A stretch of 64,000 nucleotides of DNA from Candidatus Abyssobacteria bacterium SURF_5 (GTDB taxonomy: Bacteria; Abyssobacteria; SURF-5). This document shows, in pieces, positions 2,201 to 50,214 of the stretch (position 1 is the stretch's first letter; every line of letters starts with the position of its first letter). A model generated the notes under the pieces. That model was not told where the DNA came from. It did no database searches and worked only from the letters and a program-made list of their open reading frames with translations. The stretch is from contig QZKU01000145.1 of assembly GCA_003598085.1 (NCBI GenBank), forward strand, positions 9,123 through 73,122, read 5' to 3'. The translations under genes and the position numbers were made by a program.

Positions 2201-2665
2201 CGCCTGCTTGGGTCGGGCTGGTCAACGGCGGTCGGAGAGAGCCAGACCCTCTGGAAAAGAGACGCTGCGTCTTCGGCGATACAGGCGTAACGTCCTTCTT
2301 GAAATCGCAGTCGCGCAACATGCAAATTAGATGCCAGCTGACCGGAAATTGAATTGCATTGCATGGTGCGCTTATCGAGATGACCCATCATCGAACGGAT
2401 GCTCCGCGTTTTCGGGACAAATCTGCGCGAACGAGCACGCGTTTTTCCCTCAAAAAGTTTTGGGCGATCCAACATCCGCGGTCGAAGCTCCAACAGGAAT
2501 CCGGTCGACGCCCTTTTAGCTCCCTAAAAAGGACCGATATGGAGTTTTTTGAGAAAGAAGATATCCAGGCTCCGCCGCACACGATTGTCTTTCTTGACAA
2601 CAAACGCAAGCGCTTGATACGGTATTGCCGAATAGTTGGCGGCTTTATATAAAGGCATGTATTTT

Positions 2666-17804: not shown

Positions 17805-18116
17805 ATGAACCGACCCGCCGCCGTGACGGTCACCGTTCTCGGGACCGAGCTCAGTTTCAGAACCGAAGACCCCGAGTACATCAAACAGTTAGCCGCTTTT
17901 GTTGAAAACGAAATCCGCACAGTCGTGGATTCCGGAAAAATATCATCACAGACCAAGGCGGTTATCCTCGCGGCCTTTACCATGGCCGATGAATTGTTTC
18001 GGCTGCGCAAGGAAAAGGAACAGGTCTCCAAGCGAATCGAATCGATGCTTGAGATGGCATCAAATATGCACTGGGAGACTCCGGCGGCGCCGCCACATCC
18101 GGCCACGGAAATCTGA
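17805..18116 (+). CDS. zapA: Cell division protein ZapA-like
   Basis: 103 aa. VTVLGTELSFRTEDPEYIKQLAAFVENEI is ZapA-family sequence, and it is syntenic with the upstream coiled-coil gene. Confidence 0.65.
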   Translation: MNRPAAVTVTVLGTELSFRTEDPEYIKQLAAFVENEIRTVVDSGKISSQTKAVILAAFTMADELFRLRKEKEQVSKRIESMLEMASNMHWETPAAPPHPATEI

Positions 18117-18242
18117 GGAACACGGGAGCGATTCCACTCCGGAATCTCTTGCCGTCGCCAATTCGTTCGTACGGAATTTCGCTTTTCTTGCACCGAAATG
18201 TTCAAACAAGACTTATTCGCTTCAACCAGTGCAGGGAGAAAC

Positions 18243-19133
18243 ATGATCGAGATCGCCGACCGCATCTACTTCATCGAGTCCGAAAACAGAGGGCGCTATC
18301 CGAACTCGCACTCGCTGTTTGTCGATGACGATTTGGGTATGGTTATCGACCCGGCCTGCCGCGAAGAATTGATGCTTGAACTGGCTGCGAGTCATAAGAC
18401 GAGTATCATCCTCAACACTCACTACCACGAAGACCACAGGATCTACAATTACTGCTTCACCCGCGCACAGCTTTACACACATGAGCTCGATGCCCGCGGC
18501 TACGGCTCAATCGAGGACTTCATGCAGGATTTCTCGGTTGTCAACAGCGATACGCTCAAGAACTTCTGGCGCGATTTTCTGCTCGACAACTGCAAATACC
18601 GCCCCTATACAGTCGCTCAGACTTTTTCCGACGGCTTCCAGATCGACCTCGGACATACCGTTGTCAAAACGATTCATACCCCCGGCCACTCCGCAGGCCA
18701 CAGTTGCTTTTATTTCCCCAAGGAACAGGTGCTGTACCTGGGCGATATCGACCTCACCTCCTTCGGGCCATGGTACGCCAGCCGGAATTCCGATATCGAC
18801 GCCTGGCTGACCTCGATCGAGCGCGTCCGCCGGTTGAAACCTAAAATCGTGGTTACCTCGCATGGCGACGGCCTGGTGACTGAGAACCTCGACGCCCGAA
18901 TCCAGACGTATGCTAATACAATTCATCAGCGCGATAACCGCATCCTCGAGTTCCTGCAGCGCCCCCGCACAAAAGAGGAGATTCTGGACCTCGAAATCGT
19001 CTACCGGCGCAATCATAAATCACCCGACTCTTTCTTCTACTGGGATGACCGTATGATGATAGAAATGCACATTTTTCGGCTGGAACGGCAGGGTCGATTG
19101 AAAAGACTTGACAGAAATTATGTTATAGGATAA
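18243..19133 (+). CDS. MBL-fold metallo-hydrolase
   Basis: HYHEDH (HxHxDH) and the downstream H and D ligands are present. The start was moved to the ATG at 18243, which has a GGGAG ribosome-binding site; the ORF-track start at 18198 has none. Confidence 0.8.
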   Translation: MIEIADRIYFIESENRGRYPNSHSLFVDDDLGMVIDPACREELMLELAASHKTSIILNTHYHEDHRIYNYCFTRAQLYTHELDARGYGSIEDFMQDFSVVNSDTLKNFWRDFLLDNCKYRPYTVAQTFSDGFQIDLGHTVVKTIHTPGHSAGHSCFYFPKEQVLYLGDIDLTSFGPWYASRNSDIDAWLTSIERVRRLKPKIVVTSHGDGLVTENLDARIQTYANTIHQRDNRILEFLQRPRTKEEILDLEIVYRRNHKSPDSFFYWDDRMMIEMHIFRLERQGRLKRLDRNYVIG

Positions 19134-30430: not shown

Positions 30431-30949
30431 TCATCCCATCAATTCCGAAATCTTTTTGTTCAGCTTCCGCCGGCGGCGCACGTTTGAGCCGAGAAGAACA
30501 GTCCACCGCAACACGTAGTAAGCGACGATTCCCAGAAACGCGCCATAGAGCGCTCCCCACATGATGTCCGGCGTCGCGCCCACGAGCGCGCCCGTCACCT
30601 TGAAGGCGGTATTCGCATCATCGACTCGCTTCGACAGGTCCTCGCCGAGCACGATCCTGAGGGAATCGCCCAACCGCTGCTCTTCGCCGATCAGCGGATA
30701 TAACGCCTTTGCGGCCTGATATTCAGCGCCGGCTATCAAGCCTATGAAGGGCGCTCCATAGCGCAGGACGAATCCGCTCGCTCCCGAAAACAGCCTGCCG
30801 GCCAACGAGCGCCTCCGCAATGGACCGTAGCGGCGGGCCATCTCACGCACCTCGTCACGGTCGATTGTGGCAGGAAGATAATCAAGCTCCCGGTCGAGCA
30901 ACTGGTTCCGCGCAATGTTCCGCTTCAATCGCTTTCCAACCGTCCCCAT
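30431..30949 (-). CDS. Hypothetical protein (172 aa, C-terminal TM helix), immediately upstream of and co-oriented with the orphan ABC ATPase
   Basis: It is the only long ORF in this span on either strand and lies 4 bp from the next gene. I recognise no domain. Confidence 0.45.
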   Translation of the reverse strand: MGTVGKRLKRNIARNQLLDRELDYLPATIDRDEVREMARRYGPLRRRSLAGRLFSGASGFVLRYGAPFIGLIAGAEYQAAKALYPLIGEEQRLGDSLRIVLGEDLSKRVDDANTAFKVTGALVGATPDIMWGALYGAFLGIVAYYVLRWTVLLGSNVRRRRKLNKKISELMG

Positions 30950-31324: not shown

Positions 31325-32059
31325 ATGGACTACAGCCATTACAAGGATATTGCCGTCGAGCGCAAAGGCCGGATTTTGTCGTTGACCCTGAATCGACCCG
31401 AAAGTCTTAACGCCGTTACGCCCGCCATGCATGCGGAGCTTGCCGCTATTTTCAGCGACATTCGAAAGGACGATGAGGCTGACGTGGTGACGCTGACCGG
31501 CGCGGGCAGGGGCTTTTGCGCAGGAGCCGATCTGAAGCATCCGATCCCCGACAAGGAAACCGCCGACCGGATATTCGTTGAAGGAAAGGAAATCATTCTG
31601 AATATCCTCGAGATCGACAAGCCGATCATCACCGGCGTGAACGGCCCGGCGGCCGGCCTCGGCGCCACGCTTGCCGTGTTCGGCGATATCGTCATAGCGT
31701 CTGATCGCGCCCGCATCGGCGACACGCACGTGAAAGTCGGGCTGGCAGCCGGTGACGGAGGCGCCGTCATCTGGCCGATTCTGGTCGGCGTGAACAAAGC
31801 GAAGGAGCTGCTGATGACCGGCGAGGTGATCGACGCTCAGGAAGCCCTGCGGATCGGGCTCGTCAATCATGTGGTTCCGCACGAGAAACTGAATGAGACC
31901 GTCATGGAGATGGCGCAACGGCTCGCTTCCGGCGATACCATGGCCATCCGTAACACCAAGAAAGCGGTCAACCTGTACGTGAAATGGATGATGAACCAGG
32001 TATTCGAGTATTCGCTCCTTCTGGAATACCAATGCGCAATGAGAGTTTTCGGGCGCTGA
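31325..32059 (+). CDS. Enoyl-CoA hydratase/isomerase (crotonase) family protein
   Basis: GAGRGFCAGADLK is the oxyanion-hole motif. Length is 244 aa. Confidence 0.9.
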   Translation: MDYSHYKDIAVERKGRILSLTLNRPESLNAVTPAMHAELAAIFSDIRKDDEADVVTLTGAGRGFCAGADLKHPIPDKETADRIFVEGKEIILNILEIDKPIITGVNGPAAGLGATLAVFGDIVIASDRARIGDTHVKVGLAAGDGGAVIWPILVGVNKAKELLMTGEVIDAQEALRIGLVNHVVPHEKLNETVMEMAQRLASGDTMAIRNTKKAVNLYVKWMMNQVFEYSLLLEYQCAMRVFGR

Positions 32060-32063
32060 ACTG

Positions 32064-33014
32064 CTATTCGTGCGTTACGCTCGATTTGACCTGGTAATAA
32101 AGAACTCCATCCCGAAGGACTTGGTGCAGGAGATTTTCTTCGAGGAGTTTCTGCAGATGTTTCACTGCTTCATTTCGGTGAATTCCGAGCCCTTTCGAGA
32201 TGTCTTCGAGCGTGCATGGACGGCGTCGCAACAGAGCAAGCACTTCCTCAGTCACCCTTTGCTGCTCCGGCTCGGCCGGATGCCGGCCATATGGCGTTAT
32301 TACCTCAGCATTCTCAAAAAAATCGCAGATACGCGCCATTTCAGCGTCGGGCACCCTCTCGGCCCAGCCTTCCGCGGGCGGACGGATCACCGTGTTCAGT
32401 TGGAGCTTGTCCGCAACAATTCGCTCCGCACATTTTTTTATTCGATCAAGGGCGGGTGCGGACGTGTTGATGTTATTGACCAGAAACACTTCAAGCCATA
32501 GTTGTCCGGAATATTCCTTTCGGAAGAGAGAAAGTCCTTCAACGACCTGATCGAATTTCAATTCGGGAGCGGGCCGATTGATCTTCTGGAAAAGAGCTTC
32601 GTCGCCCGCATCGAGCGAGGGCACCACAAGGTCGGCCGGCAGAAGGTCCGCCCGCACCGCCTCATCCCATAAGAGCGATCCGTTCGTGAGGACGGCAACA
32701 GGAATCGCGCTCTTGTGCTTGATCGCTTTGATGAGCTTGCCGATTTCCGAGTGAAGCGTCGGTTCTCCCGAACCCGAAAGCGTTATATAGTCCGGCCGCT
32801 CGCCTCCTTCAAGCTTCCGCCAGAGCTGGCTCAAGATGTCCGAAAGCGGAACGTATTCTTTACGAGCAATGGTTCGACAAGTTGTCCGGCCTAGCTGACA
32901 GTATATGCAATCGAAGCTGCATGTCTTGAAGGGAACCAGATCAAGCCCCAGAGAGCGCCCCAACCGCCTCGAGGGAACCGGCCCAAAAACGTACCTGCAG
33001 TTTGGCTTCGTCAT
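32064..33014 (-). CDS. Radical SAM enzyme (CX3CX2C) with C-terminal winged-helix-like domain
   Basis: MTKPNCRYVFGPVPSRRLGRSLGLDLVPFKTCSFDCIYCQ carries the CxxxCxxC cluster, followed by SGSGEPT and LDAGDE. The C-terminal 60 aa or so are helix-turn-helix-like (CTLEDISKGLGIHRNEAVKHLQKLLEENLL). The start was taken at the ATG at 33014, which has a GGAGAG ribosome-binding site; the ORF track uses the GTG at 33038. Confidence 0.85.
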   Translation of the reverse strand: MTKPNCRYVFGPVPSRRLGRSLGLDLVPFKTCSFDCIYCQLGRTTCRTIARKEYVPLSDILSQLWRKLEGGERPDYITLSGSGEPTLHSEIGKLIKAIKHKSAIPVAVLTNGSLLWDEAVRADLLPADLVVPSLDAGDEALFQKINRPAPELKFDQVVEGLSLFRKEYSGQLWLEVFLVNNINTSAPALDRIKKCAERIVADKLQLNTVIRPPAEGWAERVPDAEMARICDFFENAEVITPYGRHPAEPEQQRVTEEVLALLRRRPCTLEDISKGLGIHRNEAVKHLQKLLEENLLHQVLRDGVLYYQVKSSVTHE

Positions 33015-33113
33015 CTCTCTCCGTAGTTGGGTGACCACCGACTATGAAATGGCCGCCTGAGCACAAGCGGCGCCCTCACCAGCCGGTTGGCTTCGCCAAC
33101 CCTGCCCCCTCGC

Positions 33114-33314
33114 TTACTGCTCCCTCGCCATAACCGAGCCGCACTTCGGACATTTGACCTGATAGCATGGCACTCCCCGCTCGTGAGTCGCTTTATGGCC
33201 GCAGTTGGGGCACACGCAATTGCCGCCGGGTCCCAGCCGGAAACCGCCGCCTCTTCCCATCCCGCCGCCCATCCCGCCGCCGCCTCCGCGGCGTCCCGAA
33301 CCTGTTCCAGTCAT
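33114..33314 (-). CDS. 66-aa glycine-rich protein with C-terminal C4 zinc-ribbon (CVCPNCG...CPKCG)
   Basis: A perfect AGGAGGA Shine-Dalgarno sits 5 nt upstream of the ATG at 33314. Translation is MTGTGSGRRGGGGGMGGGMGRGGGFRLGPGGNCVCPNCGHKATHERGVPCYQVKCPKCGSVMAREQ. It lies 100 nt upstream of the radical SAM gene on the same strand. The ORF track extends it to a TTG at 33347 that has no ribosome-binding site. Confidence 0.55.
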   Translation of the reverse strand: MTGTGSGRRGGGGGMGGGMGRGGGFRLGPGGNCVCPNCGHKATHERGVPCYQVKCPKCGSVMAREQ

Positions 33315-33455
33315 CTCAGTTCCTCCTCGCATACTTGGGTAACCCAAATGCTTGTTTAAAAGTTGCCGAGGCGTCCCTATATCAGCTTAACCTTCCCATC
33401 CAAAATTGAATAACGCCTCAGTCCGGCACATCGTTCTCCACTCACTCTCGTTCTG

Positions 33456-33471
33456 AGCATCAATAATGCCA
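33456..33471 (-). promoter_or_regulatory. Candidate sigma-54 promoter (minus strand TGGCAT-N5-GATGCT) upstream of the Gly-rich peptide gene
   Basis: The reverse complement of 33456-33471 is TGGCATTATTGATGCT. GG and GC are correctly spaced. The -12 element is ATGC rather than TTGC. Confidence 0.3.
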
Positions 33472-33865
33472 ACGAAAAAGACTCTCCGCTTGCCAAGTCG
33501 CAAGGCATTGACAACACGTGCTTTAAATCCTTGCCTGTTGAGCTTTTGTCAACGCCACGAGGAATGGGGATTGCAGCCGCGCAAAACAATGTCTCTTCTC
33601 AATTGCACTCTTGCAAAAGAATTGGGCGATCTCGCTCACAACGAACTGCGGGAATGTATCCGTGCGGATATGTAGAGGATATGGATTGGATGGTGCGGAA
33701 CAACGCGCTCGATATATTTTCCACCGCATTGGCGGCCGTATGATCATAAAACGAGCAGGATTGTCCATCGGAAACGTCTCTTCCGTTGATTCGGGTGGAG
33801 CGACCACCGATAGGGGAAGCCTCTATCGCGCGCGTGTTTCGCTGTCAGCGCAGGACGAATAAAGT

Positions 33866-34258
33866 TTAGGAAGCCTCCTCACGAGGACATGCCAGCGCTT
33901 CCTCTACCGCCGCGAGAAATTTATCCGGATCGACGGGCTTATCAAACACCGCGGCCGGTTTTCTGACGGCGAGGTCGCGCCCGGCAAGGCCGCTGACCAC
34001 GATGATGGGCGTATGCTTCAGCTCCTTGTCTCTGGATAACTTGCGCGCGAAATCCGTGCCGGTCCTCTTCGGCATCAGAAGGTCGAGAATCACAAGATCC
34101 GGCTTTTCGCGGCGAGCCGCTTCGTAGGCCTCCTCCACGTTGTACGTCGGAATCGGTTGGTAGCCGTTCTTTCGCAAGAGCGTCTCGAAGAAGACCACTA
34201 CGTGTTTCTCGTCATCCAGAATCAGAATCTTCTTCTTTTCTTGATCGCCGTTCTTCAT
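33866..34258 (-). CDS. Stand-alone response regulator receiver protein
   Basis: 130 aa. ILILDDEKH, LDLLMPKRTG, IIVVSG and K are all present. It is a close paralog of the receiver at 48096-48659. Confidence 0.85.
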   Translation of the reverse strand: MKNGDQEKKKILILDDEKHVVVFFETLLRKNGYQPIPTYNVEEAYEAARREKPDLVILDLLMPKRTGTDFARKLSRDKELKHTPIIVVSGLAGRDLAVRKPAAVFDKPVDPDKFLAAVEEALACPREEAS

Positions 34259-34414
34259 TCGTTTATCCTTTCGTATGACCGGCAGCTCAGACCGGTTGAT
34301 GCCGAGTGATGATCTTTTGTCATGTTGCTCCTCCTCGAAGCCTTCCTTTCGCTGATCTCATGCCGATTCGTTTGCGATTGGGCGCACGGCGGAAATCCCG
34401 CCAGTTCTTGGATG

Positions 34415-35404
34415 TCACACTTCTTTCAGAATATCGTTTATGTAGTACTTGGAGTACAGAGCGCTCACCGGATTGTTTGCGAGCGACTTGTCTTTTACGA
34501 ACAGGGTGGACATGGGCGCCTCGCTGTATCGCGCGAAAATGCAGTCGCATCCCACGCACAGTCCCACCGCCGCGTTGATATCCGTCTTCAGGCTGTTCAG
34601 TACGCGCGCCTGCCCGATCGGATTGCAGCACATCCCTTCGACGGCCGTTATGGCATCATGCTGCGTCTGCCCCCCGATTCTGCAGCACACAGTGCTCACC
34701 TTGAAAAAGCGCCGGAGCAGGCGCGTGAGTATCTCGACTTCCTGAAACATCTCCACGCAGAAAGCGATCCCGATATGTTTGTATTCCATGCCGAGGCAGT
34801 AATAAATAAACTCGGCAATGCGACACAGCTTCCTGTCTGTCTCCGCGGATATATCCGCAGTGACTTCCATCGAATGCCGAAGGTCAGAGTACTCGTCCGC
34901 CAAGAAAAGGTCCTTCGTGTCATTCGTGCAACTCTTGTTCTCCATGCACGGACGATCGATACATTCCACACAATCGATCCTGTCCTTCTTCTGCGCGGAT
35001 TCTTCTACCGGCTCCCTGTCGAGCAGGATCGCCCTCACGCTCGAAGCAAGCGCGCCGGCCTGGTTCGATAATCCGAACCCTGTCTCCAAACGGCCGCTGA
35101 GAAGGGCGGAAAGGATATCCTCTACTTCAGCCGCCACGTTGTAAATGACTCTTATCCCGAATGAATCCGCCCTCTCGATAAAATCCTCTTCTATTGCGCC
35201 GCAGATGAAGAGATCGATGCGCAGATTTACCAGTTGCGCGAGCCGTTCTTCATCACTCATGCCGCCTGTATCTATGATTTTCCTCGAGACCACTTCATTG
35301 TCTTTAATGCTGACGAGCAACATCTGGTCCGAATAGATACACCGGGGAGATACCCGCGTGCCGAATAAGGGGATTGCAACTCTCACAATCTGGTTCCTGT
35401 TCAT
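34415..35404 (-). CDS. Fusion protein: N-terminal NifX/NifB-C-like (dinitrogenase FeMo-cofactor-binding fold) domain plus C-terminal cysteine-rich domain (DUF1847-like)
   Basis: The N-terminal 110 aa (RVAIPLFGTRVSP...IDLFICGAIEEDFIERADSFGIRVI) match the NifX-family fold pattern. The C-terminal 200 aa carry at least 14 Cys in CxxC/CC/CxC clusters (CVECIDRPC, CCRIGGQ, MCCNPIGQ, GLCVGCDC). The DUF1847 label is from memory and is not verified. Confidence 0.7.
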   Translation of the reverse strand: MNRNQIVRVAIPLFGTRVSPRCIYSDQMLLVSIKDNEVVSRKIIDTGGMSDEERLAQLVNLRIDLFICGAIEEDFIERADSFGIRVIYNVAAEVEDILSALLSGRLETGFGLSNQAGALASSVRAILLDREPVEESAQKKDRIDCVECIDRPCMENKSCTNDTKDLFLADEYSDLRHSMEVTADISAETDRKLCRIAEFIYYCLGMEYKHIGIAFCVEMFQEVEILTRLLRRFFKVSTVCCRIGGQTQHDAITAVEGMCCNPIGQARVLNSLKTDINAAVGLCVGCDCIFARYSEAPMSTLFVKDKSLANNPVSALYSKYYINDILKEV

Positions 35405-35500
35405 TCCCTCAGCGCGCGAAGCGCATGTCCTCCAACCGAATGAATTGCCGGCGCACTCGCTCTTCTCTTGCCCGCCGGAATTCCTTCCAAAAACAATTCG

Positions 35501-35516
35501 GGCAATAACTGTGCCA
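35501..35516 (-). promoter_or_regulatory. Sigma-54 promoter (minus strand TGGCACAGTTATTGCC) for the NifX-like/receiver operon
   Basis: The reverse complement of 35501-35516 is TGGCAC-N5-TTGC with exact -24/-12 spacing. It lies about 95 nt upstream of the ATG at 35404. A TCCGC-N5-GCGGA inverted repeat at 35590-35604 lies about 75 nt further upstream and is a candidate enhancer site. Confidence 0.6.
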
Positions 35517-35807
35517 AACCCCCGCGCCGTTGTTTCCGTCGCGGACGGAGCGGCAACATGCCCCCTTTATCGACGTTCACTGCATCTTCTCCGCAAAAAG
35601 CGGAGCGCTCGGGGACGCCGCCGGTGTTACATCGGGTGCTGCATGCAGCGCTGCACCGCAATAGTTCTTGATCGCGCGCTGCCCGCCCGCCCGTAAGACT
35701 GCGGCAACCCGTAAGCCGCCTTCGAAAAATTTTCTTTAGCGGAGCGACAGCCAGTGTCGATGTATTCCGCGGCATGACCTGCCGCGGCCGTGCGGAGCAT
35801 TTGACGG

Positions 35808-35823
35808 TGGCATAGTTTTTGCC
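35808..35823 (+). promoter_or_regulatory. Sigma-54 promoter TGGCATAGTTTTTGCC for the Hdr-like operon
   Basis: TGGCAT-N5-TTGC with exact spacing. It lies about 100 nt upstream of the ATG at 35922, which has an AGGAGG ribosome-binding site. An 8-bp-arm inverted repeat CCGCGGCA-tgacc-TGCCGCGG sits 20 bp upstream at 35767-35787. A TGCATGCA/GCAGCGCTGC palindrome pair sits at 35640-35654. Confidence 0.6.
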
Positions 35824-35921
35824 CAACTAAAAGACGGTGGTGGCATCCGACGCCATGAGGAAACGGCGAGCGAGCATTGAGCCGCCCCGCAAATGGAGCT
35901 TGAGAACAGGAGGTTCTTCAT

Positions 35922-37061
35922 ATGGCTTCTGTTTCCCCGATGCTTGAAATAACCGACGCCATCATGGAGGTCGGCGGCAAGACTCTGAAGGTATGCATGC
36001 AGTGCGGCACGTGCACGGGAGTATGTCCCTGGAATCTGGTGGACGAATTCAGCCCGAGGCTCTTGATCCGGCTGGTCAGCCTGGGCATCGAAGGATATGA
36101 ACAGGACAGCCTGTGGAATTGCGTCACCTGCGCCACGTGCGTCACCCGGTGCCCCCGTGGAATCGATATCATCGATGTCATCAGATCGACGCGGAGCGTC
36201 ATGCTCGAGAGCGGAATCGTGCCGCCGGCCTATCGCGTGCCTCTCGCAAGCCTGCGCAATGAGGGGAATCCGTGGAGCTCTCCCCGCTCGGAACGCGCGG
36301 ATTGGGCGGCAAAATTGAATATTCCCGAGTTCTCCGAGGCGACCGAACATCTGCTTTTCGCCTGCTGCACCCATGCGTATGACGCCCGAAACAGGAAGGT
36401 CCTGAAGGAGACGGCCGAACTGCTTCTAAAAGGAGGCGCCTCCGTCGGCATTATCGGAACCGAGGAAAGCTGCTGCGGCGACCAGGCGCATAAATGCGGC
36501 GCTCTGGAAACATATACGGCGCTGCAGGAAGCCAATACCGAGCTTTTTGCCGCTCGCGGAGTCAGAAAGATCATCACCACGTCTCCTCATTGCCTGAATC
36601 TGTTCATCAAGGAGTATAAAGGCGAGTTCGATGCAGTCCATTACACGCAAGTCTTCGCGAAGCTCATCAAGGAGAAAAAGCTTGTTCCTGCAAAACCGGT
36701 CCCATTGAAGGTCGCCTATCACGATCCCTGCTACCTGGGCCGCCACAACAACATTTATGATGAGCCGAGAGACGTTCTCCGCAGCATTCCCGCACTGGAG
36801 TACGTGGAACTTCCCCGATGCAAGCAAAGGAGCCTGTGCTGCGGCGGAGGCGGAGGCGGCATCTGGTCTGAAATCGAAGTCGAAAAACGTTTCAGCGTGC
36901 TGCGCATACGGGAGGCGAAGGAAGCCGGCGCAAACGTGATAGCCACCGCGTGCCCGTTCTGCATGATCATGCTCGAGGACGGCCTGAAGGCTTCAGGCAT
37001 CGATGAGAGCGAGATGAAGATTCTCGATGTGAGCGAGTTACTCTATGAATCGGTCGAATAA
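35922..37061 (+). CDS. HdrD-like (Fe-S)-binding protein with two 4Fe-4S ferredoxin motifs and two CCG domains
   Basis: CMQCGTCTGVCP and CVTCATCVTRCP ferredoxin motifs. The CCG motifs are CCG...C and CCGGGGGG...CPFC. Confidence 0.85.
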   Translation: MASVSPMLEITDAIMEVGGKTLKVCMQCGTCTGVCPWNLVDEFSPRLLIRLVSLGIEGYEQDSLWNCVTCATCVTRCPRGIDIIDVIRSTRSVMLESGIVPPAYRVPLASLRNEGNPWSSPRSERADWAAKLNIPEFSEATEHLLFACCTHAYDARNRKVLKETAELLLKGGASVGIIGTEESCCGDQAHKCGALETYTALQEANTELFAARGVRKIITTSPHCLNLFIKEYKGEFDAVHYTQVFAKLIKEKKLVPAKPVPLKVAYHDPCYLGRHNNIYDEPRDVLRSIPALEYVELPRCKQRSLCCGGGGGGIWSEIEVEKRFSVLRIREAKEAGANVIATACPFCMIMLEDGLKASGIDESEMKILDVSELLYESVE

Positions 37062-37076
37062 AACGGCGGGGAAATC

Positions 37077-40000
37077 ATGAGCAGAGAATTTCCATTAAGA
37101 GAGGAACGAATCGGTTTCTATATCTGTCATTGCGGTATCAATATCGCATTCAAGGTCAGATGCGCTGAAGTAGCCGAGTATATCGGAACATTGCCCGGCG
37201 TCGCCGTCTCGCGCGATTACCTGTTCATGTGCTCTGATCCCGGGCAGGAGATTATCGAGAAAGACATCAGGGAGCTCGACCTGACGCGCGTGGTGGTCGC
37301 TTCCTGCTCCCCCCGCATGCACGAGCATACCTTCAGGGCGGCATGCGCGCGAGCCGGCCTCAACCCCTTCCGGGCATTTCATCATGTCTGCGTCCGGGAG
37401 CATGTATCCTGGGTCACTCTCGACGAAGACCAGGCCACCGAGAAAGCAAAACTGCTCGCTCGCGCCGGCATCAGGCGCGTGCGATATCAATCCGACCTCT
37501 TTCCCAAAACCTTCCCCGTCAATCCCAACACGCTCGTGGTCGGCGGCGGAATCACCGGAATGCAAGCGTCGCTTGACGTCGCAAAGGCAGGTTACAAGGT
37601 GTATCTCGTCGAGCGGCAGGCCACTATCGGCGGCCACATGCTCCAATACGACAAGACCTTCCCGACCATGGACTGCGCCGCCTGCATCGGTACGCCCAAG
37701 ATGGTCGCCGTCGGCCAGAATCCGAACATCGAAATTCTCTCCCTGAGCGAGGTCGAAGAGATCAGCGGTTTCGTCGGCAACTTCAAGGTCAAAGTGAGAA
37801 AGCACGCCCGCTACGTGAAAGCTGACAAGTGCACAGGCTGCGCCGAATGCACCAAGTATTGTCCCATCATCGTGCCGAATGAATGGGATGTGAACACGAA
37901 GCAGCGCAACGCCGTGTACCGGCCGTTCCCGCAAGCGGTCCCCATCACGTTCGCCATCGATAAAAAGGACAGGGGCCCCTGCGTCCAGACGTGTCCCGCC
38001 GGCACCAATGTGCAAGGCTACGTCACGATGATCCGAGAGGGCAAATACAAGGAAGCCCTCAAGATAATCATGGAAAACCTCCCGCTCCCGGGCGTGCTCG
38101 GCAGAGTCTGTCCGGCCCCATGCGAAAAAGAGTGCAGGAGAGGCGAAGTCGATGAGCCGGTTTCAATCCGGAACCTGAAGCGCTTCGCCGCCGACCAGGC
38201 GGATTGGGAAACGCTCGAACTGCCCGAAATCGATATGAAGCCGCCTGAGGAAAAGGTGGCGATCGTGGGATCGGGCCCGGCAGGCCTTGCCTGCGCGTAT
38301 TTCCTCGCCCGAAAAGGATATCATCCGACCGTCTTCGAGGCCTTGCCGGAGGTCGGCGGCATGCTGCGGGCCGGCATCCCCGATTACCGCCTGCCGCCCG
38401 AGGTGCTCAATCGCGAAGTGAATTATATCCGCCGCCTGGGAGTCGAGATCAAGACCAACGCTCCCATCGGCGGAGAAACAACAATCGAGAGCCTCCTCGC
38501 CAATGGCTTCAAGGCAGTGTTCTTGTCGACCGGCGCCCACAACGAATTCAAACTCGGTGTCGAGGGCGAAGACGCCGCAGGCGTGCTGAAAGGAATCTCG
38601 TTCCTGCGCGACGTGAATTTCTGCGCGAATGGAGAGGTGGGCAAGAAGGCCGTCGTTATCGGCGGCGGCGCGGTCGCCATGGACGTGGCCCGCGTCGCTC
38701 GGCGCAAGGGCGCCTCGGAAGTGCACGTCTATTGCCTTGAGAAGCGACACGAAATGCCCGCGTGGGTCGAGGAGATCGAAGCCGCCGAGGCCGAAGGAAT
38801 CGAGATTCATAATGCATGGGGCGTCAAACGGATATTGACGAACGACGCGAAAGTCAAGGGCATCGAGTTCAAGCGATGTACCGCGGTATTTGACGAAAAC
38901 AAGAGATTCAGTCCGCAGTACGATGATTCTGAAACCATAACCGAAAACTGCAATACGGTTCTGGTTGCAATCGGCCAGAGACCTGATCTGTCCTGCCTCA
39001 ACGGCTCGAAGGATGTCCAGCTTACCCGAAGAGGCCTTATTGCCGCCGATCCGGTCACCTTGCAGACCAGCAAGCCCGGCGTTTTTGCGGGCGGCGAAAT
39101 GTATTCCGGGCCCTCGCTTGTGGTGCAGGCGGTGGCGACCGGCAAGGAGGCCGCCATTTCCATCGAGCGCTACTTGAAGAGCGAAGACCTTGTTCTCGAC
39201 AGGCCCGAGCGTCCAAAGGGCGAGAACTGGGCCCCCATCCCTGAAGACGTCCAGAAGGCCGCTCGTGCGAAAATGCCCGAACTCGCGCCCGCTGACAGAG
39301 TGAACGGCTTCGTCGAAGTCGAGACGGGCTTCACCGAGGAGCAAGCCAGAGCCGAAGCCGCCCGCTGTCTCTCGTGCGGCGTGTGCTGCGAGTGCAAGCA
39401 GTGCGTGCCCGCTTGCGAGGCGAAGGCAATCGACCACGATGCCAAGGACGAAATCGTCACGCTCGACGTGGGCTCAATTATCCTGGCCACCGGCTTCGAC
39501 ATCATGGACCCGACGCCGATGCAGGAGTACGGCTACGGCAAATACCGCAATGTTCTGACAAGCTTGGAATTCGAGCGCCTCTCCAACGCCACGGGTCCCA
39601 CCTCCGGCAAAATCCTTCTCCGGGACCCGAACGACAGGTGGAACCACACCCGGCCCCCCAAGAGCGTCGCATTCCTGCACTGCGTCGGCAGCCGCGACAA
39701 AAACTATCACGACTATTGCTCGCGAACCTGCTGTATGTACGCGCTGAAAATGGCGCACCTGGTTAAGGACAAGTGCGGCCATGACACGCAGGTGTTCAAT
39801 TTCTACATCGATATGCGGTGCTTCGGAAAAGGACAGGAGGAGTTTTACCGCCGCATCCAGGATGAGGGCGTGAGGATGGTCCGGGGCAAGGCCGTCGAGG
39901 TGACCGATAAGGCGGAGGACCCGAGCGAAGAAGGAATGCTCATCGTACGGGCGGAAGACTCGCTGATCGGCAAAATGCTGAGGGTGCCGGTCGAGATGGT

Positions 40001-40508
40001 GGTTCTGTGCACGGCCATGGAACCGCGGCCGGACGCCCTGGAGGTGGCCAGAATCTTCGGCCTATCACTCAGCGCCGACGGCTTCTTCATGGAAGAACAT
40101 CCGAAGCTCGAGCCGGTCTCGACCCCAACCTCCGGCGTCTTCCTCGCCGGCGCTTGCCAGGGTCCGAAGGACATAACTGATTCAGTCGCGCAGGCAAAAG
40201 CGGCCGCCAGCGAAGCGCAGGCGCTTTCCACCCTGGGGAAAGTGATCGTCCCGCCGATGATAAGCCATATCGACGAAGACATCTGCATCGGCTGTCAAGT
40301 CTGCATCGGGTTGTGCCCGTACTCTGCGATCGAATTCGACGAATTCAAAAAGGTTAGCGTGGTGAATGAGGCTGTTTGTAAAGGATGCGGGAGCTGCGCC
40401 GCCTACTGCCCGAGCGGCGCCGCCGACATACGCCATTTCACCCAAAAACAGATTTTCGGTGAAATCGAGGGAATCCTCGTAGGAGCCAAGGAGACACGCG
40501 ATGAGTAA
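37077..40508 (+). CDS. Large HdrA-like flavoprotein fused to a GltD/NfnB-like NAD(P)H-binding FAD domain (HdrL-like)
   Basis: 1143 aa. The N-terminal HdrA FAD fold is VVGGGITGMQASLDVAKAGYKVYLVE, with several 4Fe-4S motifs. An internal glutamate-synthase-small-subunit-like region reads VAIVGSGPAGLACAYFLARKGYHPTVFEALPEVGGML. The C-terminal HdrA ferredoxin part follows. Confidence 0.85.
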   Translation: MSREFPLREERIGFYICHCGINIAFKVRCAEVAEYIGTLPGVAVSRDYLFMCSDPGQEIIEKDIRELDLTRVVVASCSPRMHEHTFRAACARAGLNPFRAFHHVCVREHVSWVTLDEDQATEKAKLLARAGIRRVRYQSDLFPKTFPVNPNTLVVGGGITGMQASLDVAKAGYKVYLVERQATIGGHMLQYDKTFPTMDCAACIGTPKMVAVGQNPNIEILSLSEVEEISGFVGNFKVKVRKHARYVKADKCTGCAECTKYCPIIVPNEWDVNTKQRNAVYRPFPQAVPITFAIDKKDRGPCVQTCPAGTNVQGYVTMIREGKYKEALKIIMENLPLPGVLGRVCPAPCEKECRRGEVDEPVSIRNLKRFAADQADWETLELPEIDMKPPEEKVAIVGSGPAGLACAYFLARKGYHPTVFEALPEVGGMLRAGIPDYRLPPEVLNREVNYIRRLGVEIKTNAPIGGETTIESLLANGFKAVFLSTGAHNEFKLGVEGEDAAGVLKGISFLRDVNFCANGEVGKKAVVIGGGAVAMDVARVARRKGASEVHVYCLEKRHEMPAWVEEIEAAEAEGIEIHNAWGVKRILTNDAKVKGIEFKRCTAVFDENKRFSPQYDDSETITENCNTVLVAIGQRPDLSCLNGSKDVQLTRRGLIAADPVTLQTSKPGVFAGGEMYSGPSLVVQAVATGKEAAISIERYLKSEDLVLDRPERPKGENWAPIPEDVQKAARAKMPELAPADRVNGFVEVETGFTEEQARAEAARCLSCGVCCECKQCVPACEAKAIDHDAKDEIVTLDVGSIILATGFDIMDPTPMQEYGYGKYRNVLTSLEFERLSNATGPTSGKILLRDPNDRWNHTRPPKSVAFLHCVGSRDKNYHDYCSRTCCMYALKMAHLVKDKCGHDTQVFNFYIDMRCFGKGQEEFYRRIQDEGVRMVRGKAVEVTDKAEDPSEEGMLIVRAEDSLIGKMLRVPVEMVVLCTAMEPRPDALEVARIFGLSLSADGFFMEEHPKLEPVSTPTSGVFLAGACQGPKDITDSVAQAKAAASEAQALSTLGKVIVPPMISHIDEDICIGCQVCIGLCPYSAIEFDEFKKVSVVNEAVCKGCGSCAAYCPSGAADIRHFTQKQIFGEIEGILVGAKETRDE

Positions 40509-48771: not shown

Positions 48772-50151
48772 TTAAGATGGGGGCATACTCTCTGCGGTTT
48801 CGCCGTTATTGGCCAGAATGCCGTACTTCGACATTTTCCTCCAGAGCGTAACGCGATGCATGCCGAGCTCGCGGGCTGACCTGCTGCAGTTGCCTCCGTT
48901 CCGAATCAGCGCCTCTCGAATGATTGCTTCTTCTGAACTGTTCCCATTGAACGAGCCATTATGGCCGTTCTCGACGTTTTGCACCGCCTCCAGTATCCTC
49001 TGAGGGAGGTGCTCTGCCTCTATCACATTCCCCTCGCAAATCACAAACGCGTGCTCGATGGCGTTCTCCAGTTCCCGCACGTTTCCCGGGAAATCGTGCT
49101 TTCTCAGAAGATTCAATGCTCCATCGGATACCCGGCGGATGTCCTTCTTGCGCTTCCCCCGAAATTTCCTGATGAAGTGCTCAATGAGAATCGGCAAATC
49201 CTCCAGCCGCTCCCGGAGCGGAGGAACCACGATACTGATGACGTTAATACGATAATACAGATCCTCCCGAAACGCGCCCTGCTCGACCATGTGCTTGATA
49301 TCCTGATTTGTGGACGTGATTATCCGGGCGTCCGCCTGCAGCATGCGCGTCGATCCCAGGGGTTGGTATTCCCCGTTATTCAACACCCTCAGCAGCTTCA
49401 CCTGCAGCGAAAGCGGCATATCTCCGATCTCATCCAGAAGCAGCGTGCCGCCTTGAGCCAAATAAAACATTCCCGGCTTGTCCCGCTTCGCATCGGTGAA
49501 AGCTCCCCGCGCATACCCGAACAGCTCCGATTCCAGCAACGTCTCCGGCAGCGCGGCGCAGTTGATGCGGATGTACGCGTTATGTTTGCGCGGACTCATG
49601 TTATGAAGCGCCTGCGCCAACAGCTCCTTCCCCGACCCGCTGGGGCCCTGGATCACCACGTTGCATTCCGACTCGGCAATGTTGGGCAACAGCTTGAAGA
49701 TGTGTTGCATCTTCTCATTGCAACTGACGATGTTCTCCAACCCCCGCAGCTTGCTGATCCTGTTCTGCAGGTTCTCGATTTCCGAAAGATCGCGAAAAAA
49801 TTCCACCGCGCCGACACAACGATCGGAACCGTCCCGCAACAGCGTCGTGCTGACACTGACCGGAAGCTTGCGACCATCCCGCCTGATGATGGTCACGCGT
49901 ACGTTGCTCGCGGACTTCCCGTTCTCCAGCGTGCTCCGCAACGCGCAGCCTCTCTGACACAGGTCCGTCCTGAATATGTCAAAACAGTACTTCCCAATGA
50001 CCTCCTCCCGCGTGAATCCCGATATCCTTTCCGCCGACCGGTTCAGCGATGTGATTCGGCACTCCTTGTCCGTCGTGAATACGCCCTCATCGATGCTGTC
50101 AAAGATAATCTGCGAAATGCCCTTCTGTTCACGGTCTTCTATTGTTGTCAT
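48772..50151 (-). CDS. Sigma-54-dependent transcriptional activator (bEBP) with N-terminal PAS sensor and C-terminal Fis-type HTH; no receiver domain
   Basis: The AAA+ sigma-54 interaction domain carries GPSGSGKE, GAFTDA and ESELFGY (a GAFTGA variant), and PGNVRELEN. The PAS segment contains CFDIFRTDLCQRGC. Confidence 0.95.
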   Translation of the reverse strand: MTTIEDREQKGISQIIFDSIDEGVFTTDKECRITSLNRSAERISGFTREEVIGKYCFDIFRTDLCQRGCALRSTLENGKSASNVRVTIIRRDGRKLPVSVSTTLLRDGSDRCVGAVEFFRDLSEIENLQNRISKLRGLENIVSCNEKMQHIFKLLPNIAESECNVVIQGPSGSGKELLAQALHNMSPRKHNAYIRINCAALPETLLESELFGYARGAFTDAKRDKPGMFYLAQGGTLLLDEIGDMPLSLQVKLLRVLNNGEYQPLGSTRMLQADARIITSTNQDIKHMVEQGAFREDLYYRINVISIVVPPLRERLEDLPILIEHFIRKFRGKRKKDIRRVSDGALNLLRKHDFPGNVRELENAIEHAFVICEGNVIEAEHLPQRILEAVQNVENGHNGSFNGNSSEEAIIREALIRNGGNCSRSARELGMHRVTLWRKMSKYGILANNGETAESMPPS

Positions 50152-50198: not shown

Positions 50199-50214
50199 TG
50201 CATCGATCGTGCCA
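50199..50214 (-). promoter_or_regulatory. Sigma-54 promoter (minus strand TGGCACGATCGATGCA) upstream of the bEBP gene
   Basis: The reverse complement of 50199-50214 gives TGGCACG-N4-ATGC with exact spacing. It lies about 50 nt upstream of the ATG at 50151, which has a GGTGAGGAG ribosome-binding site. Confidence 0.5.

What the first reader, a model, noticed from the sequence alone, without database searches (positions are those of the whole stretch)
32064..33314. 66-aa Gly-rich zinc-ribbon peptide with a perfect Shine-Dalgarno, encoded directly upstream of a radical SAM enzyme
MTGTGSGRRGGGGGMGGGMGRGGGFRLGPGGN-CVCPNCG-x18-CPKCGSVMAREQ is preceded by AGGAGGA at optimal spacing. It is followed, after 100 nt containing two stable hairpins, by a 316-aa radical SAM protein (CSFDCIYCQ) that ends in a winged-helix-like domain.

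Small peptide plus radical SAM is the hallmark layout of peptide-modifying (RiPP-like) or cofactor-maturation systems. The low-complexity Gly-rich N-terminus loosely recalls DUF5320-type proteins that accompany NifX-like and Fe-S maturation genes in anaerobes. A NifX-like/Cys-rich fusion protein sits 1.1 kb upstream on the same strand. Homology to DUF5320 is not established here.
Basis: partly seen in the sequence, partly recalled or inferred. Interest (0 to 1): 0.7.

Follow-up and report, generated by a model that had tools for sequence, protein, structure and literature searches.

The report
Metal-binding mini-protein beside radical SAM enzyme
The small glycine-rich protein and the radical SAM enzyme are real, conserved genes, but the peptide is almost certainly not an antibiotic-like precursor: both are optional parts of a widespread, poorly understood gene cluster that anaerobes appear to use for handling iron-sulfur or other metal-sulfur cofactors.

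Summary
On the minus strand, a 66-aa Gly/Arg-rich Cys-rich protein (33114-33314) with an AGGAGGA ribosome-binding site lies 99 nt upstream of a 316-aa radical SAM (rSAM) protein (32064-33014) that ends in a winged helix. The record is Ca. Abyssubacteria SURF_5.

The RiPP reading is not supported.
- The peptide's C-terminal core, C-x-C-x2-C-x5-H-x5-C-x4-C-x2-C, has fixed spacing in 107/107 copies.
- It occurs in bacteria and archaea: 565 confirmed stretches in species genomes and 1460 clusters at 50% identity.
- It is also found fused to DUF134, to cation-efflux transporters, and in several copies inside PDZ-NifX proteins.

In well-flanked loci its neighbours are NifX-like genes (31/33), MinD-type ferredoxin ATPases (28/33) and DUF5320 (22/33). 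This rSAM family is present in only 12/33. Anchoring on the rSAM gives the same neighbourhood, with the peptide in 6/21.

Both genes are therefore accessory members of the orange-protein (ORP)-type cluster of anaerobes. The window holds a detached compact version behind a sigma-54-like promoter. The rSAM has one cluster motif, no SPASM domain and an ArsR-like winged helix, and it is not TYW1. Function remains inferred.

The parts
33456..33471 (-). sigma-54-type -24/-12 promoter-like motif TGGCATTATTGATGCT, 142 nt upstream of the peptide ATG
   Evidence: the pattern TGGCAY-N5-WTGCW occurs 4 times in the window against 0.23 expected, and none of 100 shuffles reached 4; in related loci the same motif is found 16 times on the cluster strand and 5 on the opposite strand, several of them directly upstream of peptide, rSAM, NifX or Mrp genes. 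Function was not tested.
33321..33327 (-). Shine-Dalgarno AGGAGGA, 6-nt spacer to the ATG
   Evidence: Read directly from the sequence.
33114..33314 (-). 66-aa small protein. Residues 1-32 form a cationic Gly-rich disordered tail. Residues 33-58 form the Cys6His rubredoxin/zinc-ribbon-like core.
   Evidence: 100% identical to RJP14021.1, with 89 homologues. C33, C35, C38, H44, C50, C55 and C58 are invariant. AlphaFold pLDDT is below 56 for residues 1-30 and 85-91 for residues 31-66.
33141..33218 (-). Core motif C-x-C-x2-C-x5-H-x5-C-x4-C-x2-C, with two CPxCG knuckles plus Cys33, His44 and Cys50
   Evidence: identical spacing in 107/107 copies from 94 loci; the fold resembles generic zinc ribbons and rubredoxins only weakly (Foldseek E>=0.56).
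33015..33113 (-). 99-nt GC-rich intergenic spacer able to form a long imperfect hairpin
   Evidence: -43.9 kcal/mol, z=-1.85, 10 of 200 shuffles fold as well; no terminator-like T-run; no Rfam match.
32064..33014 (-). 316-aa radical SAM protein with one CX3CX2C motif (C32, C36, C39), an N-terminal FGPVPSRRLGRSLG motif and a C-terminal ArsR-like winged helix
32088..32270 (-). Winged helix-turn-helix domain of the rSAM protein (about residues 249-309) with the invariant RRRPC motif
34415..35404 (-). NifX-like (weak) plus DUF1847 Cys-rich fusion protein, upstream on the same strand
   Evidence: DUF1847 E=1.2e-31; Nitro_FeMo-Co E=0.0018, below cut-off; matches the C-terminal NifX-like part of MrpORP at E=5e-4.
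33866..34258 (-). Single-domain response regulator between the NifX-like fusion gene and the peptide
   Evidence: Response_reg E=9.6e-17. DVU0259 family, 118.5 bits, below the cut-off of 160. Whether it belongs to the system was not tested.

Best explanation
The two genes are a compact, detached piece of the anaerobe-specific ORP-type gene neighbourhood. That neighbourhood comprises NifX-like carriers, MinD-type ATPases with ferredoxin domains, Mrp/NBP35, DUF5320 and DUF134. Its characterised parts bind and transfer Fe-S or Mo-Cu-S clusters.

The peptide is not a precursor to be processed. It is a small metalloprotein module. A rubredoxin/zinc-ribbon-like core carries seven fixed ligands (six Cys and one His), enough for more than one metal or for a shared cluster. 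In front of it is a disordered, cationic Gly/Arg tail.

Inferred: the core binds Fe, Zn or an Fe-S unit. The tail contacts an anionic partner, either a metal-sulfide species (as proposed for the IssA tail) or nucleic acid. The module works with NifX-like domains.

The rSAM enzyme has a single [4Fe-4S]/SAM site and an ArsR-like winged helix. Inferred: it performs one SAM-dependent radical step on the cluster or cofactor, or on a small Cys-rich protein partner within the same system.

Both genes are probably transcribed from a sigma-54 promoter. The strong ribosome-binding site would make the peptide abundant.
For: Shown:

- Peptide neighbourhood. In 33 peptide-anchored loci with at least 5 kb on both sides, the neighbours are NifX 31, MinD-Fer4 28, DUF5320 22, DUF134 20, Mrp 15 and rSAM 12. 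Pfam confirmed the identities of these clusters.
- rSAM neighbourhood. In 21 rSAM-anchored loci the counts are NifX 14, Mrp 13, MinD-Fer4 12, DUF5320 12, FmdB 10 and peptide 6 (maps).
- Sister genome. An Abyssubacteria contig carries NifX, DUF5320, a peptide homologue, MinD-Fer4, CDF/Band7, MinD-Fer4, Mrp, NifX and the rSAM (63% identity) in one 9-kb array.
- Closest peptide homologue. It lies between DUF5320 and two MinD-Fer4 genes.
- Core motif. The spacing is invariant in 107/107 copies.
- Domain fusions. The module is fused to DUF134 and to Cation_efflux+ZT_dimer. It occurs 2-5 times in PDZ-NifX proteins and in a rhodanese-NifX protein.
- Tail composition. 41% Gly, 17% Arg+Lys, 3% acidic, median net charge +5; predicted disordered.
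- rSAM features. Only the CX3CX2C motif plus C267 are invariant cysteines. The core fold is closest to NifB and PFL-AE, and the winged helix is ArsR-like.
- Promoter. The sigma-54-like motif is enriched in the window and on the cluster strand of relatives.

From the literature:

- ORP operons are sigma-54/OrpR-dependent, and their proteins bind Fe-S or Mo-Cu-S clusters (PMC6345978, PMC8359166).
- The cationic Gly-rich tail of the NifX-family protein IssA is proposed to bind anionic thioferrate (PMC5524996).
Against: - The window itself has no MinD-Fer4, Mrp or canonical DUF5320 gene. Its NifX-like domain is below the Pfam threshold. Membership therefore rests on relatives, not on the local context.
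- No metal content, substrate or activity is known for the peptide family or for this rSAM family.
- I found no paper on either. The DUF5320 search gave only 2 irrelevant hits and COG0731 gave none.
- 10 of 36 long rSAM loci show none of the cluster genes within 10 kb, so the rSAM may also act outside the cluster.
- The tail-binds-metal-sulfide idea is an analogy only.
Confidence: 0.6

Rival explanations
1. Direct partner pair. The Cys6His mini-protein is the protein substrate or obligate partner of the rSAM enzyme, but not a RiPP. For example, the enzyme modifies it or acts on a cluster held by it. NifX-like protein + rSAM + peptide would then form a minimal functional module.
For: - Compact modules recur on unrelated contigs. 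L060 has two copies of [sigma-54-like motif, NifX-like, rSAM, peptide], with the rSAMs 81% identical. L109 has rSAM then peptide. L151 has peptide then rSAM. L117 has peptide, NifX, rSAM. L070 has peptide then rSAM.
- The window has the same compact form.
- In 12/62 other rSAM loci a different small Cys-rich zinc-ribbon protein (FmdB type) ends 0-76 bp upstream of the rSAM. A small Cys-rich protein at that position is therefore a recurrent theme.
- The rSAM core resembles PFL-AE, which acts on a protein.
Against: - Most peptide loci lack the rSAM nearby (21/33) and most rSAM loci lack the peptide (15/21).
- Order and distance vary.
- The L060 duplication is a single evolutionary event.
- The module also works as a domain of transporters and DNA-binding proteins, with no rSAM implied.
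Confidence: 0.22
2. Regulatory module. The Cys6His domain is a metal- or redox-sensing domain that works with DNA-binding proteins (DUF134, or the winged helix of the rSAM) to control expression of the cluster. The Gly/Arg tail binds nucleic acid.
For: - 28 of 107 copies are the C-terminal domain of DUF134, a sigma-70 region-4-like HTH protein.
- C-terminal fusion to CDF metal exporters fits a metal-sensing tail.
- The rSAM winged helix is structurally closest to the ArsR/SmtB/CzrA metal sensors.
Against: - Multi-copy arrays inside PDZ-NifX and rhodanese-NifX proteins are hard to read as transcription control.
- The strong ribosome-binding site suggests an abundant structural or carrier role.
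- No DNA target is known.
Confidence: 0.12
3. RiPP-like system. The peptide is a ribosomal precursor, with a Gly-rich leader and a Cys-rich core, matured by the adjacent rSAM enzyme.
For: - The layout is a small ORF directly upstream of an rSAM gene.
- A C-terminal winged helix could in principle recognise a peptide.
Against: - No SPASM/twitch, B12 or PqqD domain.
- Only one cluster motif is conserved.
- The core is conserved with fixed spacing from DPANN archaea to Deltaproteobacteria instead of being hypervariable.
- It is fused to transporters, DNA-binding proteins and NifX proteins.
- No protease or exporter gene is linked.
- Co-localisation is only 29-36%.
Confidence: 0.04
4. Chance adjacency. 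The rSAM is a TYW1-like tRNA-modifying enzyme (the COG0731 name used by JGI) and is unrelated to the peptide.
For: JGI names many homologues 'wyosine synthetase'. TYW1 is the best NCBIfam and PDB sequence match.
Against: - TYW1 scores 48.9 bits against a cut-off of 317.95. The PDB match has E about 7e-5 and covers only about 110 residues of the core.
- The family is embedded in ORP-type clusters in about 26 of 36 long loci.
- The peptide lies within 10 kb in 36% of well-flanked peptide loci. By my own rough estimate, a single-copy gene in a 3-Mb genome would do so in under 1%.
Confidence: 0.02

Closest known systems
Orange protein (ORP) complex and orp operons of Desulfovibrio vulgaris (Orp3/Orp4 MinD-type ferredoxin ATPases, Orp5, Orp8 NifX-like orange protein, Orp9 = MrpORP; sigma-54/OrpR controlled)
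   Same: - Relatives of both window genes lie among NifX-like, MinD-Fer4 and Mrp/NBP35 genes.
- There is a sigma-54-like promoter.
- A PAS/sigma-54 activator with three Cys in its PAS domain lies 15 kb away in the window.
- The distribution is restricted to anaerobes.
   Different: - The published ORP complex has no rSAM enzyme and no Cys6His mini-protein (PMC6345978).
- The window lacks the ATPases.
- The physiological role of ORP itself is unsettled; PMC6345978 describes it as putatively involved in cell division.
DUF5320 (PF17253)
   Same: - The N-terminal motif MPxGDxTGPxGxGxxGR and a Gly/Arg-rich low-complexity region are shared at family level (hhalign 94.5%).
- Some family members reach the Pfam threshold through that part. 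P0086 scores 45.6 bits.
- DUF5320 genes lie next to the peptide gene in 22/33 loci.
   Different: - The window peptide has no Pfam DUF5320 hit and lacks most of the motif.
- DUF5320 ends in a coiled coil, whereas this family ends in the Cys6His core.
NifB (rSAM domain fused to a NifX-like domain; nitrogenase cofactor core synthesis)
   Same: - The rSAM gene often directly follows a NifX-like gene, giving a split NifB-like arrangement (L161; L117, L142, L135, L069, L073 and L060).
   Different: - There is no conserved set of extra Cys/His ligands for auxiliary clusters.
- No NifB model appears among the NCBIfam hits.
IssA of Pyrococcus furiosus (NifX-family domain plus cationic Gly-rich tail; stores Fe and S as thioferrate)
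   Same: The protein has a disordered, cationic, Gly-rich tail in a NifX-linked setting (PMC5524996).
   Different: - In IssA the tail is C-terminal to a NifX-family domain and is rich in aromatic residues.
- Here the tail is N-terminal to a Cys6His core and has few aromatics (4.4%).
- There is no sequence homology. The comparison is an analogy only.
FmpB of Desulfovibrio magneticus RS-1 (magnetochrome + PDZ + NifX/NifB domain; needed for normal magnetosome number)
   Same: Large relatives have PDZ domains, then 2-5 Cys6His modules, then a NifX-like domain. That is the same layout with the Cys6His module in the place of the haem-binding magnetochrome (PMC4287615).
   Different: - The metal-binding unit is different.
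- No magnetosome genes were seen.
- The window protein is a single free-standing module.
rSAM-dependent RiPP systems (sactipeptides, ranthipeptides, streptide, PQQ)
   Same: A small ORF lies next to an rSAM gene.
   Different: There is no SPASM/twitch domain, no PqqD-type recognition element, no hypervariable core, no linked protease or exporter, and no obligate pairing.

Membership tests
rSAM-dependent RiPP system | The maturase carries a SPASM/twitch or other auxiliary-cluster domain | tested here: not met
   Pfam finds only Radical_SAM and HTH families. SPASM-type NCBIfam models match the core only and score far below their cut-offs. The only invariant cysteines are C32, C36, C39 and C267.
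rSAM-dependent RiPP system | A PqqD-like RiPP recognition element is present | tested here: not met
   [not shown]
rSAM-dependent RiPP system | The precursor has a variable core, a narrow distribution and obligate linkage to the maturase | tested here: not met
   The core spacing is invariant in 107/107 copies across archaea and bacteria. The module is fused to other proteins. The rSAM is near the peptide in 12/33 loci and the peptide is near the rSAM in 6/21.
DUF5320 (PF17253) | Score above the Pfam gathering threshold (27 bits) | tested here: not met
   The window peptide has no DUF5320 hit at E<=0.01. Some relatives do reach the threshold, such as P0086 at 45.6 bits.
DUF5320 (PF17253) | N-terminal MPxGDxTGPxGxGPxTGR motif | tested here: inconclusive
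   The family profile aligns to it (94.5%, E=8e-8, 20 columns). The window sequence is mostly gapped there, reading M----------TGTGSGR.
DUF5320 (PF17253) | C-terminal coiled-coil region | tested here: not met
   It is replaced by the Cys6His core.
ORP-type (orange protein) gene cluster | A NifX-like (Nitro_FeMo-Co) gene is in the cluster | tested here: inconclusive
   In the window there is only a weak N-terminal NifX-like region in the 34415-35404 protein (E=0.0018, below cut-off; MrpORP C-terminal part at E=5e-4). In relatives it is present in 31/33 loci.
ORP-type (orange protein) gene cluster | MinD-type ATPases with two ferredoxin motifs (Orp3/Orp4) and an Mrp/NBP35 protein (Orp9) | tested here: not met
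   There are none in the 64-kb window. In relatives MinD-Fer4 is present in 28/33 loci and Mrp/NBP35 in 15/33. The rest of the SURF_5 genome could not be searched.
ORP-type (orange protein) gene cluster | Sigma-54 promoter and cognate PAS-domain activator (OrpR) | tested here: inconclusive
   The motif is present at 33456-33471 and is enriched. A PAS/sigma-54/HTH_8 activator lies at 48772-50151, 40% identical to one that sits beside a peptide locus. The regulatory link was not tested.
TYW1 / 4-demethylwyosine synthase (TIGR03972) | Equivalog score at or above 317.95 bits | tested here: not met
   48.9 bits.
NifB | Conserved ligands for auxiliary K-cluster [4Fe-4S] pairs, and NifB family models | tested here: not met
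   [not shown]
Zinc ribbon / rubredoxin-like knuckle fold | Two CPxCG knuckles forming a Cys4 site | tested here: inconclusive
   The sequence has CPNCG and CPKCG. The Pfam zinc-ribbon models score below their cut-offs. The best Foldseek matches (Rpb12, LysW, rubredoxin) have E>=0.56. Metal identity is not testable with these tools.

The most novel reading that the evidence does not exclude
The Cys6His module, a NifX-like carrier and this single-cluster rSAM enzyme together form a split, NifB-like machine. It would build or remodel an as yet unknown metal-sulfur cofactor, or a thioferrate-like Fe-S store, in anaerobes. The mini-protein would supply in trans the auxiliary metal site that the enzyme lacks. 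Its cationic Gly/Arg tail would hold the anionic metal-sulfide species. The same module, repeated in PDZ-NifX proteins and attached to metal exporters, would then mark a broad, undescribed pathway of metal-sulfide handling shared by bacteria and DPANN archaea.
Probability: 0.15. Interest if true: 0.85.

Novelty: new variant of a known kind. Interest (0 to 1): 0.5.

Why it matters
The ORP-type neighbourhood is one of the most widespread 'known unknowns' of anaerobe genomes. It is kept even in the very small genomes of DPANN archaea, yet only a few of its proteins have been studied.

This work contributes three things:
- It places two further families inside that neighbourhood: a 7-ligand Cys6His module that matched no Pfam or NCBIfam model above threshold, and a winged-helix rSAM enzyme.
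- It uses domain fusions to tie the module to NifX-like domains, sulfur transfer (rhodanese) and metal export.
- It gives a compact two-gene unit that could be expressed and tested directly.

If the rSAM enzyme acts on a metal-sulfur species or on a small Cys-rich carrier, that would be a new branch of radical SAM metallocofactor chemistry. If not, the finding is still a useful correction: a small ORF next to an rSAM gene is not in itself a RiPP signature.

Tried and rejected
- **First genome scan.** The scan with the full peptide alignment failed because it had no conserved stretch. I redid it with the 39-residue core.
- **First clustering.** Single-linkage clustering of neighbours chained unrelated families through Gly-rich segments. 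I redid it with stricter coverage and then with domain-level HMMs that separate DUF134 from the Cys6His core.
- **Intergenic hairpins.** I tested them as a regulatory element. They are not significant (z=-1.85) and have no T-run.
- **Riboswitch or other RNA family.** None was found in 31800-36000 at E<=1.
- **Sequence search of solved structures.** Only remote rSAM-core matches came back (E about 7e-5 to 1e-4), so no close structure exists.
- **Literature.** 'DUF5320' gave 2 irrelevant papers. 'COG0731' gave none. 'DUF134' with 'radical SAM' gave 3 irrelevant papers. The 2011 paper that defined the orp operons is not held. A Methanococcus molybdenum paper turned out to be unrelated.
- **TYW1, NifB, PFL-AE and RiPP-maturase identities.** I considered each and rejected it as a membership claim.
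- **P0348.** This 10-repeat hit lacks the motif on inspection. I treated it as a false positive.
- **Inverted-repeat search.** A search of the promoter region for activator sites failed on a strand-format error, and I did not repeat it.
Full report
**1. The observation**

All the features lie on the minus strand. The 66-aa ORF runs from 33314 to 33114 and reads MTGTGSGRRGGGGGMGGGMGRGGGFRLGPGGNCVCPNCGHKATHERGVPCYQVKCPKCGSVMAREQ. AGGAGGA sits at 33321-33327, six bases before the ATG.

Ninety-nine bases after the stop codon, a 316-aa radical SAM (rSAM) protein starts at 33014 and ends at 32064. It has CSFDCIYCQ, a Pfam Radical_SAM match (E=1.4e-14) and a C-terminal HTH_20 match just above threshold.

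The protein at 34415-35404 is a DUF1847 protein (E=1.2e-31) with a weak NifX-like N-terminus (E=0.0018).

The spacer folds into one long imperfect hairpin of -43.9 kcal/mol. Ten of 200 shuffles fold as well, and there is no T-run. I do not count it as a feature.

The contig is from Ca. Abyssubacteria bacterium SURF_5. Both genes are already annotated there as a hypothetical protein (UniRef: 'Ferredoxin') and a radical SAM protein.

**2. The peptide is a conserved protein family, not an orphan ORF**

A search of 5.8 billion proteins found 89 relatives, all matching the C-terminal half. An alignment of 35 of them shows C33, C35, C38, H44, C50, C55 and C58 invariant.

They come from DPANN and methanogen-related archaea, Chloroflexota, Brocadiia, Omnitrophota, Nitrospirota, Desulfobacterota and others.

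In 94 loci I found 107 copies of the motif C-x-C-x2-C-x5-H-x5-C-x4-C-x2-C, every one with the same spacing. A full HMMER scan of 1.84 billion representatives with the 39-residue core gave 1460 clusters at E<=0.001.

No Pfam or NCBIfam model reaches its cut-off on the window peptide. AlphaFold predicts residues 1-30 disordered and 31-66 folded (pLDDT 85-91). The fold resembles generic zinc ribbons and rubredoxins only weakly.

The 35 residues before the core are 41% Gly, 17% Arg/Lys and 3% acidic across the family.

**3. Where the module occurs**

Besides free-standing small proteins, the module is found in several other architectures:
- as the C-terminal domain of DUF134 proteins, in 28 of 107 copies;
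- as the C-terminal domain of Cation_efflux+ZT_dimer transporters in DPANN archaea;
- in two to five copies inside large proteins with two PDZ domains and one to three NifX-like domains;
- in a rhodanese, 3x module, NifX protein;
- in a double zinc ribbon, trypsin, PDZ protein.

These fusions tie the module to NifX-like domains, sulfur transfer and metal export. They are incompatible with a peptide that exists only to be processed.

The PDZ, module, NifX layout parallels FmpB of Desulfovibrio magneticus, which has magnetochrome, PDZ and NifX/NifB domains (PMC4287615).

**4. Neighbours of the peptide**

I clustered ORFs around the 80 fetched loci and confirmed the clusters with Pfam. I then recounted with domain-level HMMs in the 33 loci that have at least 5 kb on both sides:

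| Neighbour | Loci (of 33) |
|---|---|
| NifX-like | 31 |
| MinD-type ATPase with ferredoxin motifs | 28 |
| DUF5320 | 22 |
| DUF134 | 20 |
| Mrp/NBP35 | 15 |
| Metallo-beta-lactamase (MBL) fold | 14 |
| FmdB-type zinc ribbon | 12 |
| This rSAM family | 12 |
| NifU | 9 |

This is the ORP-type neighbourhood. In Desulfovibrio vulgaris the ORP complex consists of Orp3/Orp4 (MinD-type, two ferredoxin motifs), Orp5, Orp8 (the NifX-like orange protein) and Orp9 (MrpORP). It is expressed from sigma-54 promoters under OrpR (PMC6345978, PMC8359166).

**5. Neighbours of the rSAM**

The rSAM family is large: 8000 candidates scored, with the best 120 at 51-71% identity apart from the window's own record. 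It has a very conserved N-terminal FGPVPSRRLGRSLG motif, one CX3CX2C motif and an invariant RRRPC in the winged helix.

Among 80 metagenome loci anchored on the rSAM, 21 have at least 5 kb on both sides:

| Neighbour | Loci (of 21) |
|---|---|
| NifX | 14 |
| Mrp | 13 |
| MinD-Fer4 | 12 |
| DUF5320 | 12 |
| FmdB | 10 |
| NifU | 10 |
| MBL | 9 |
| Cys6His peptide | 6 |

Maps of the 36 loci of at least 8 kb show the rSAM embedded in such clusters in about 26 of them and alone in 10.

In the sister Abyssubacteria contig the peptide homologue and the rSAM (63% identical) lie at the two ends of one 9-kb array. The closest peptide homologue lies between DUF5320 and two MinD-Fer4 genes.

The window has none of the ATPases. 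Its peptide-rSAM pair is therefore a detached, compact version.

**6. Is the pair nevertheless a unit?**

Direct adjacency recurs. L060 has two copies of [sigma-54-like motif, NifX-like, rSAM, peptide], with the rSAMs 81% identical. L109, L151, L070 and L117 also show adjacency, in either order.

In 12 of 62 evaluable rSAM loci, a different small zinc-ribbon protein ends 0-76 bp upstream of the rSAM. It is an FmdB-type protein with a ...TCCGRxERCxxPxC tail.

A small Cys-rich protein next to this enzyme is therefore a recurring theme. That keeps a direct-partner model alive as the main rival.

**7. The enzyme**

- NCBIfam gives TYW1 as best hit, at 48.9 bits against a cut-off of 318. No family passes its cut-off.
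- The AlphaFold model is confident, with pLDDT 90.5.
- There is no SPASM/twitch, B12 or PqqD domain.
- A shorter subfamily of about 260 aa without the winged helix also lies in peptide-containing clusters. The winged helix is therefore not required for that association.

**8. Regulation**

TGGCATTATTGATGCT at 33456-33471 matches the sigma-54 -24/-12 pattern. The pattern occurs 4 times in the window against 0.23 expected. In the related loci it occurs 16 times on the cluster strand and 5 times on the other strand, several of them just upstream of cluster genes.

A PAS/sigma-54/HTH_8 activator lies at 48772-50151 with its own such motif at 50199-50214. It is 40% identical to an activator next to a peptide locus, and it has three Cys in its PAS domain. 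OrpR uses three PAS cysteines to bind a [4Fe-4S] cluster (PMC8359166).

This link is a lead, not a result. No Rfam family matches the region.

**9. Relation to DUF5320**

A profile-profile comparison aligns the family's N-terminus with the DUF5320 N-terminal motif (94.5%, 20 columns). The window sequence is mostly gapped there. Some relatives pass the Pfam threshold through that part.

The two families thus share an N-terminal motif and a Gly/Arg-rich region but differ in their C-terminal halves. The shared motif may be a docking element for a common partner (my inference).

**10. Mechanism**

Shown:
- conservation of seven potential ligands;
- a disordered cationic tail;
- the fusions;
- the neighbourhoods;
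- a single-cluster rSAM with an ArsR-like winged helix;
- the sigma-54-like motif.

Inferred:
- The core binds Fe, Zn or an Fe-S unit.
- The tail contacts an anionic partner. By analogy this could be thioferrate-like or thiomolybdate-like species, as proposed for the IssA tail (PMC5524996) and as bound non-covalently by the orange protein (PMC6345978).
- The rSAM enzyme performs one radical step on a cluster or on a small Cys-rich protein of the system.

**11. Verdict**

The RiPP reading is rejected, and the cofactor-maturation reading is supported at the level of genomic context.

The window shows a compact variant of a known but poorly understood kind of cluster. It contains two families that I did not find described in the literature available here.

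Interest is moderate (0.5). The most novel reading the evidence does not exclude, a split NifB-like metal-sulfur pathway, has about 15% probability.

Noticed in passing
L125, L143, L090, L157, L113, L114, L123, L154, L105, L088, L103, L122 (immediately upstream of the rSAM match in each): An FmdB-type zinc-ribbon protein (Pfam Zn_ribbon_8) of about 80-90 aa, with a Gly-rich linker and a Cys-rich tail (...TCCGRxERCxxPxC), ends 0-76 bp before the rSAM gene in 12 of 62 evaluable loci. This is a tighter small-protein/rSAM pairing than the one flagged in the window.
   Followed up: partly
P0213, P0215, P0217, P0219, P0221, P0222, P0228 (Planctomycetota and other MAGs); P0216; P0226 (Riflebacteria): The Cys6His module occurs 2-5 times, separated by Pro/Gly-rich repeats, in proteins of 600-1500 aa. 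These carry two PDZ domains and one to three NifX-like domains. It also occurs in a rhodanese, 3x module, NifX protein and in a trypsin-PDZ protein. The layout resembles the magnetosome-related FmpB.
   Followed up: partly
L002 8999-10117, L003 7340-8410, L008 3397-4452, L001 1-663: In DPANN archaea the same module is the C-terminal tail of cation-diffusion-facilitator transporters (Cation_efflux + ZT_dimer). These are often followed directly by a DUF134-module fusion gene.
   Followed up: partly
window 48772-50151 (-) and 50199-50214 (-): A PAS/sigma-54 activator/HTH_8 protein has three Cys in its PAS domain, the same architecture as OrpR. A sigma-54-like motif, TGGCACGATCGATGCA, lies just upstream of its own start. 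It is 40% identical to an activator next to a peptide locus (L019).
   Followed up: partly
window 2321-2336 (-) and 18055-18070 (+): There are two further sigma-54-like -24/-12 motifs in the window. The one at 18055 lies upstream of a metallo-beta-lactamase-fold gene (18198-19133), a family that also recurs in ORP-type clusters.
   Followed up: no
L060 489-1775 and 8577-10114: In an uncultured deltaproteobacterium the block [sigma-54-like motif, NifX-like, rSAM, peptide] is duplicated (rSAMs 81% identical). A third peptide copy lies at 3430-3879.
   Followed up: yes
L029, L069, L055, L028, L026, L073, L013, L058, L076, L023 (rSAM matches): A shorter rSAM subfamily of about 260 aa, without the C-terminal winged helix, sits in the same clusters. 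The winged helix is therefore an optional addition.
   Followed up: no
window 35922-37061 (+) and 37077-40508 (+): Transcribed divergently from the NifX-like/DUF1847 gene are an HdrD-like protein (two CCG domains plus a ferredoxin domain) and a 1143-aa Cys-rich ORF. The large ORF resembles HdrA in my reading of its sequence, but I did not scan it against any family library. Whether they are linked to the flagged genes is unknown.
   Followed up: no
window 30431-30949 (-): A 172-aa ORF with no Pfam match lies between an ABC ATPase gene and the enoyl-CoA hydratase gene.
   Followed up: no
L161 2013-5787: In the sister Abyssubacteria cluster, a Cation_efflux+Band_7 fusion gene and two further Band_7 genes are inserted between the MinD-Fer4 genes. 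This again links the cluster to metal export.
   Followed up: no
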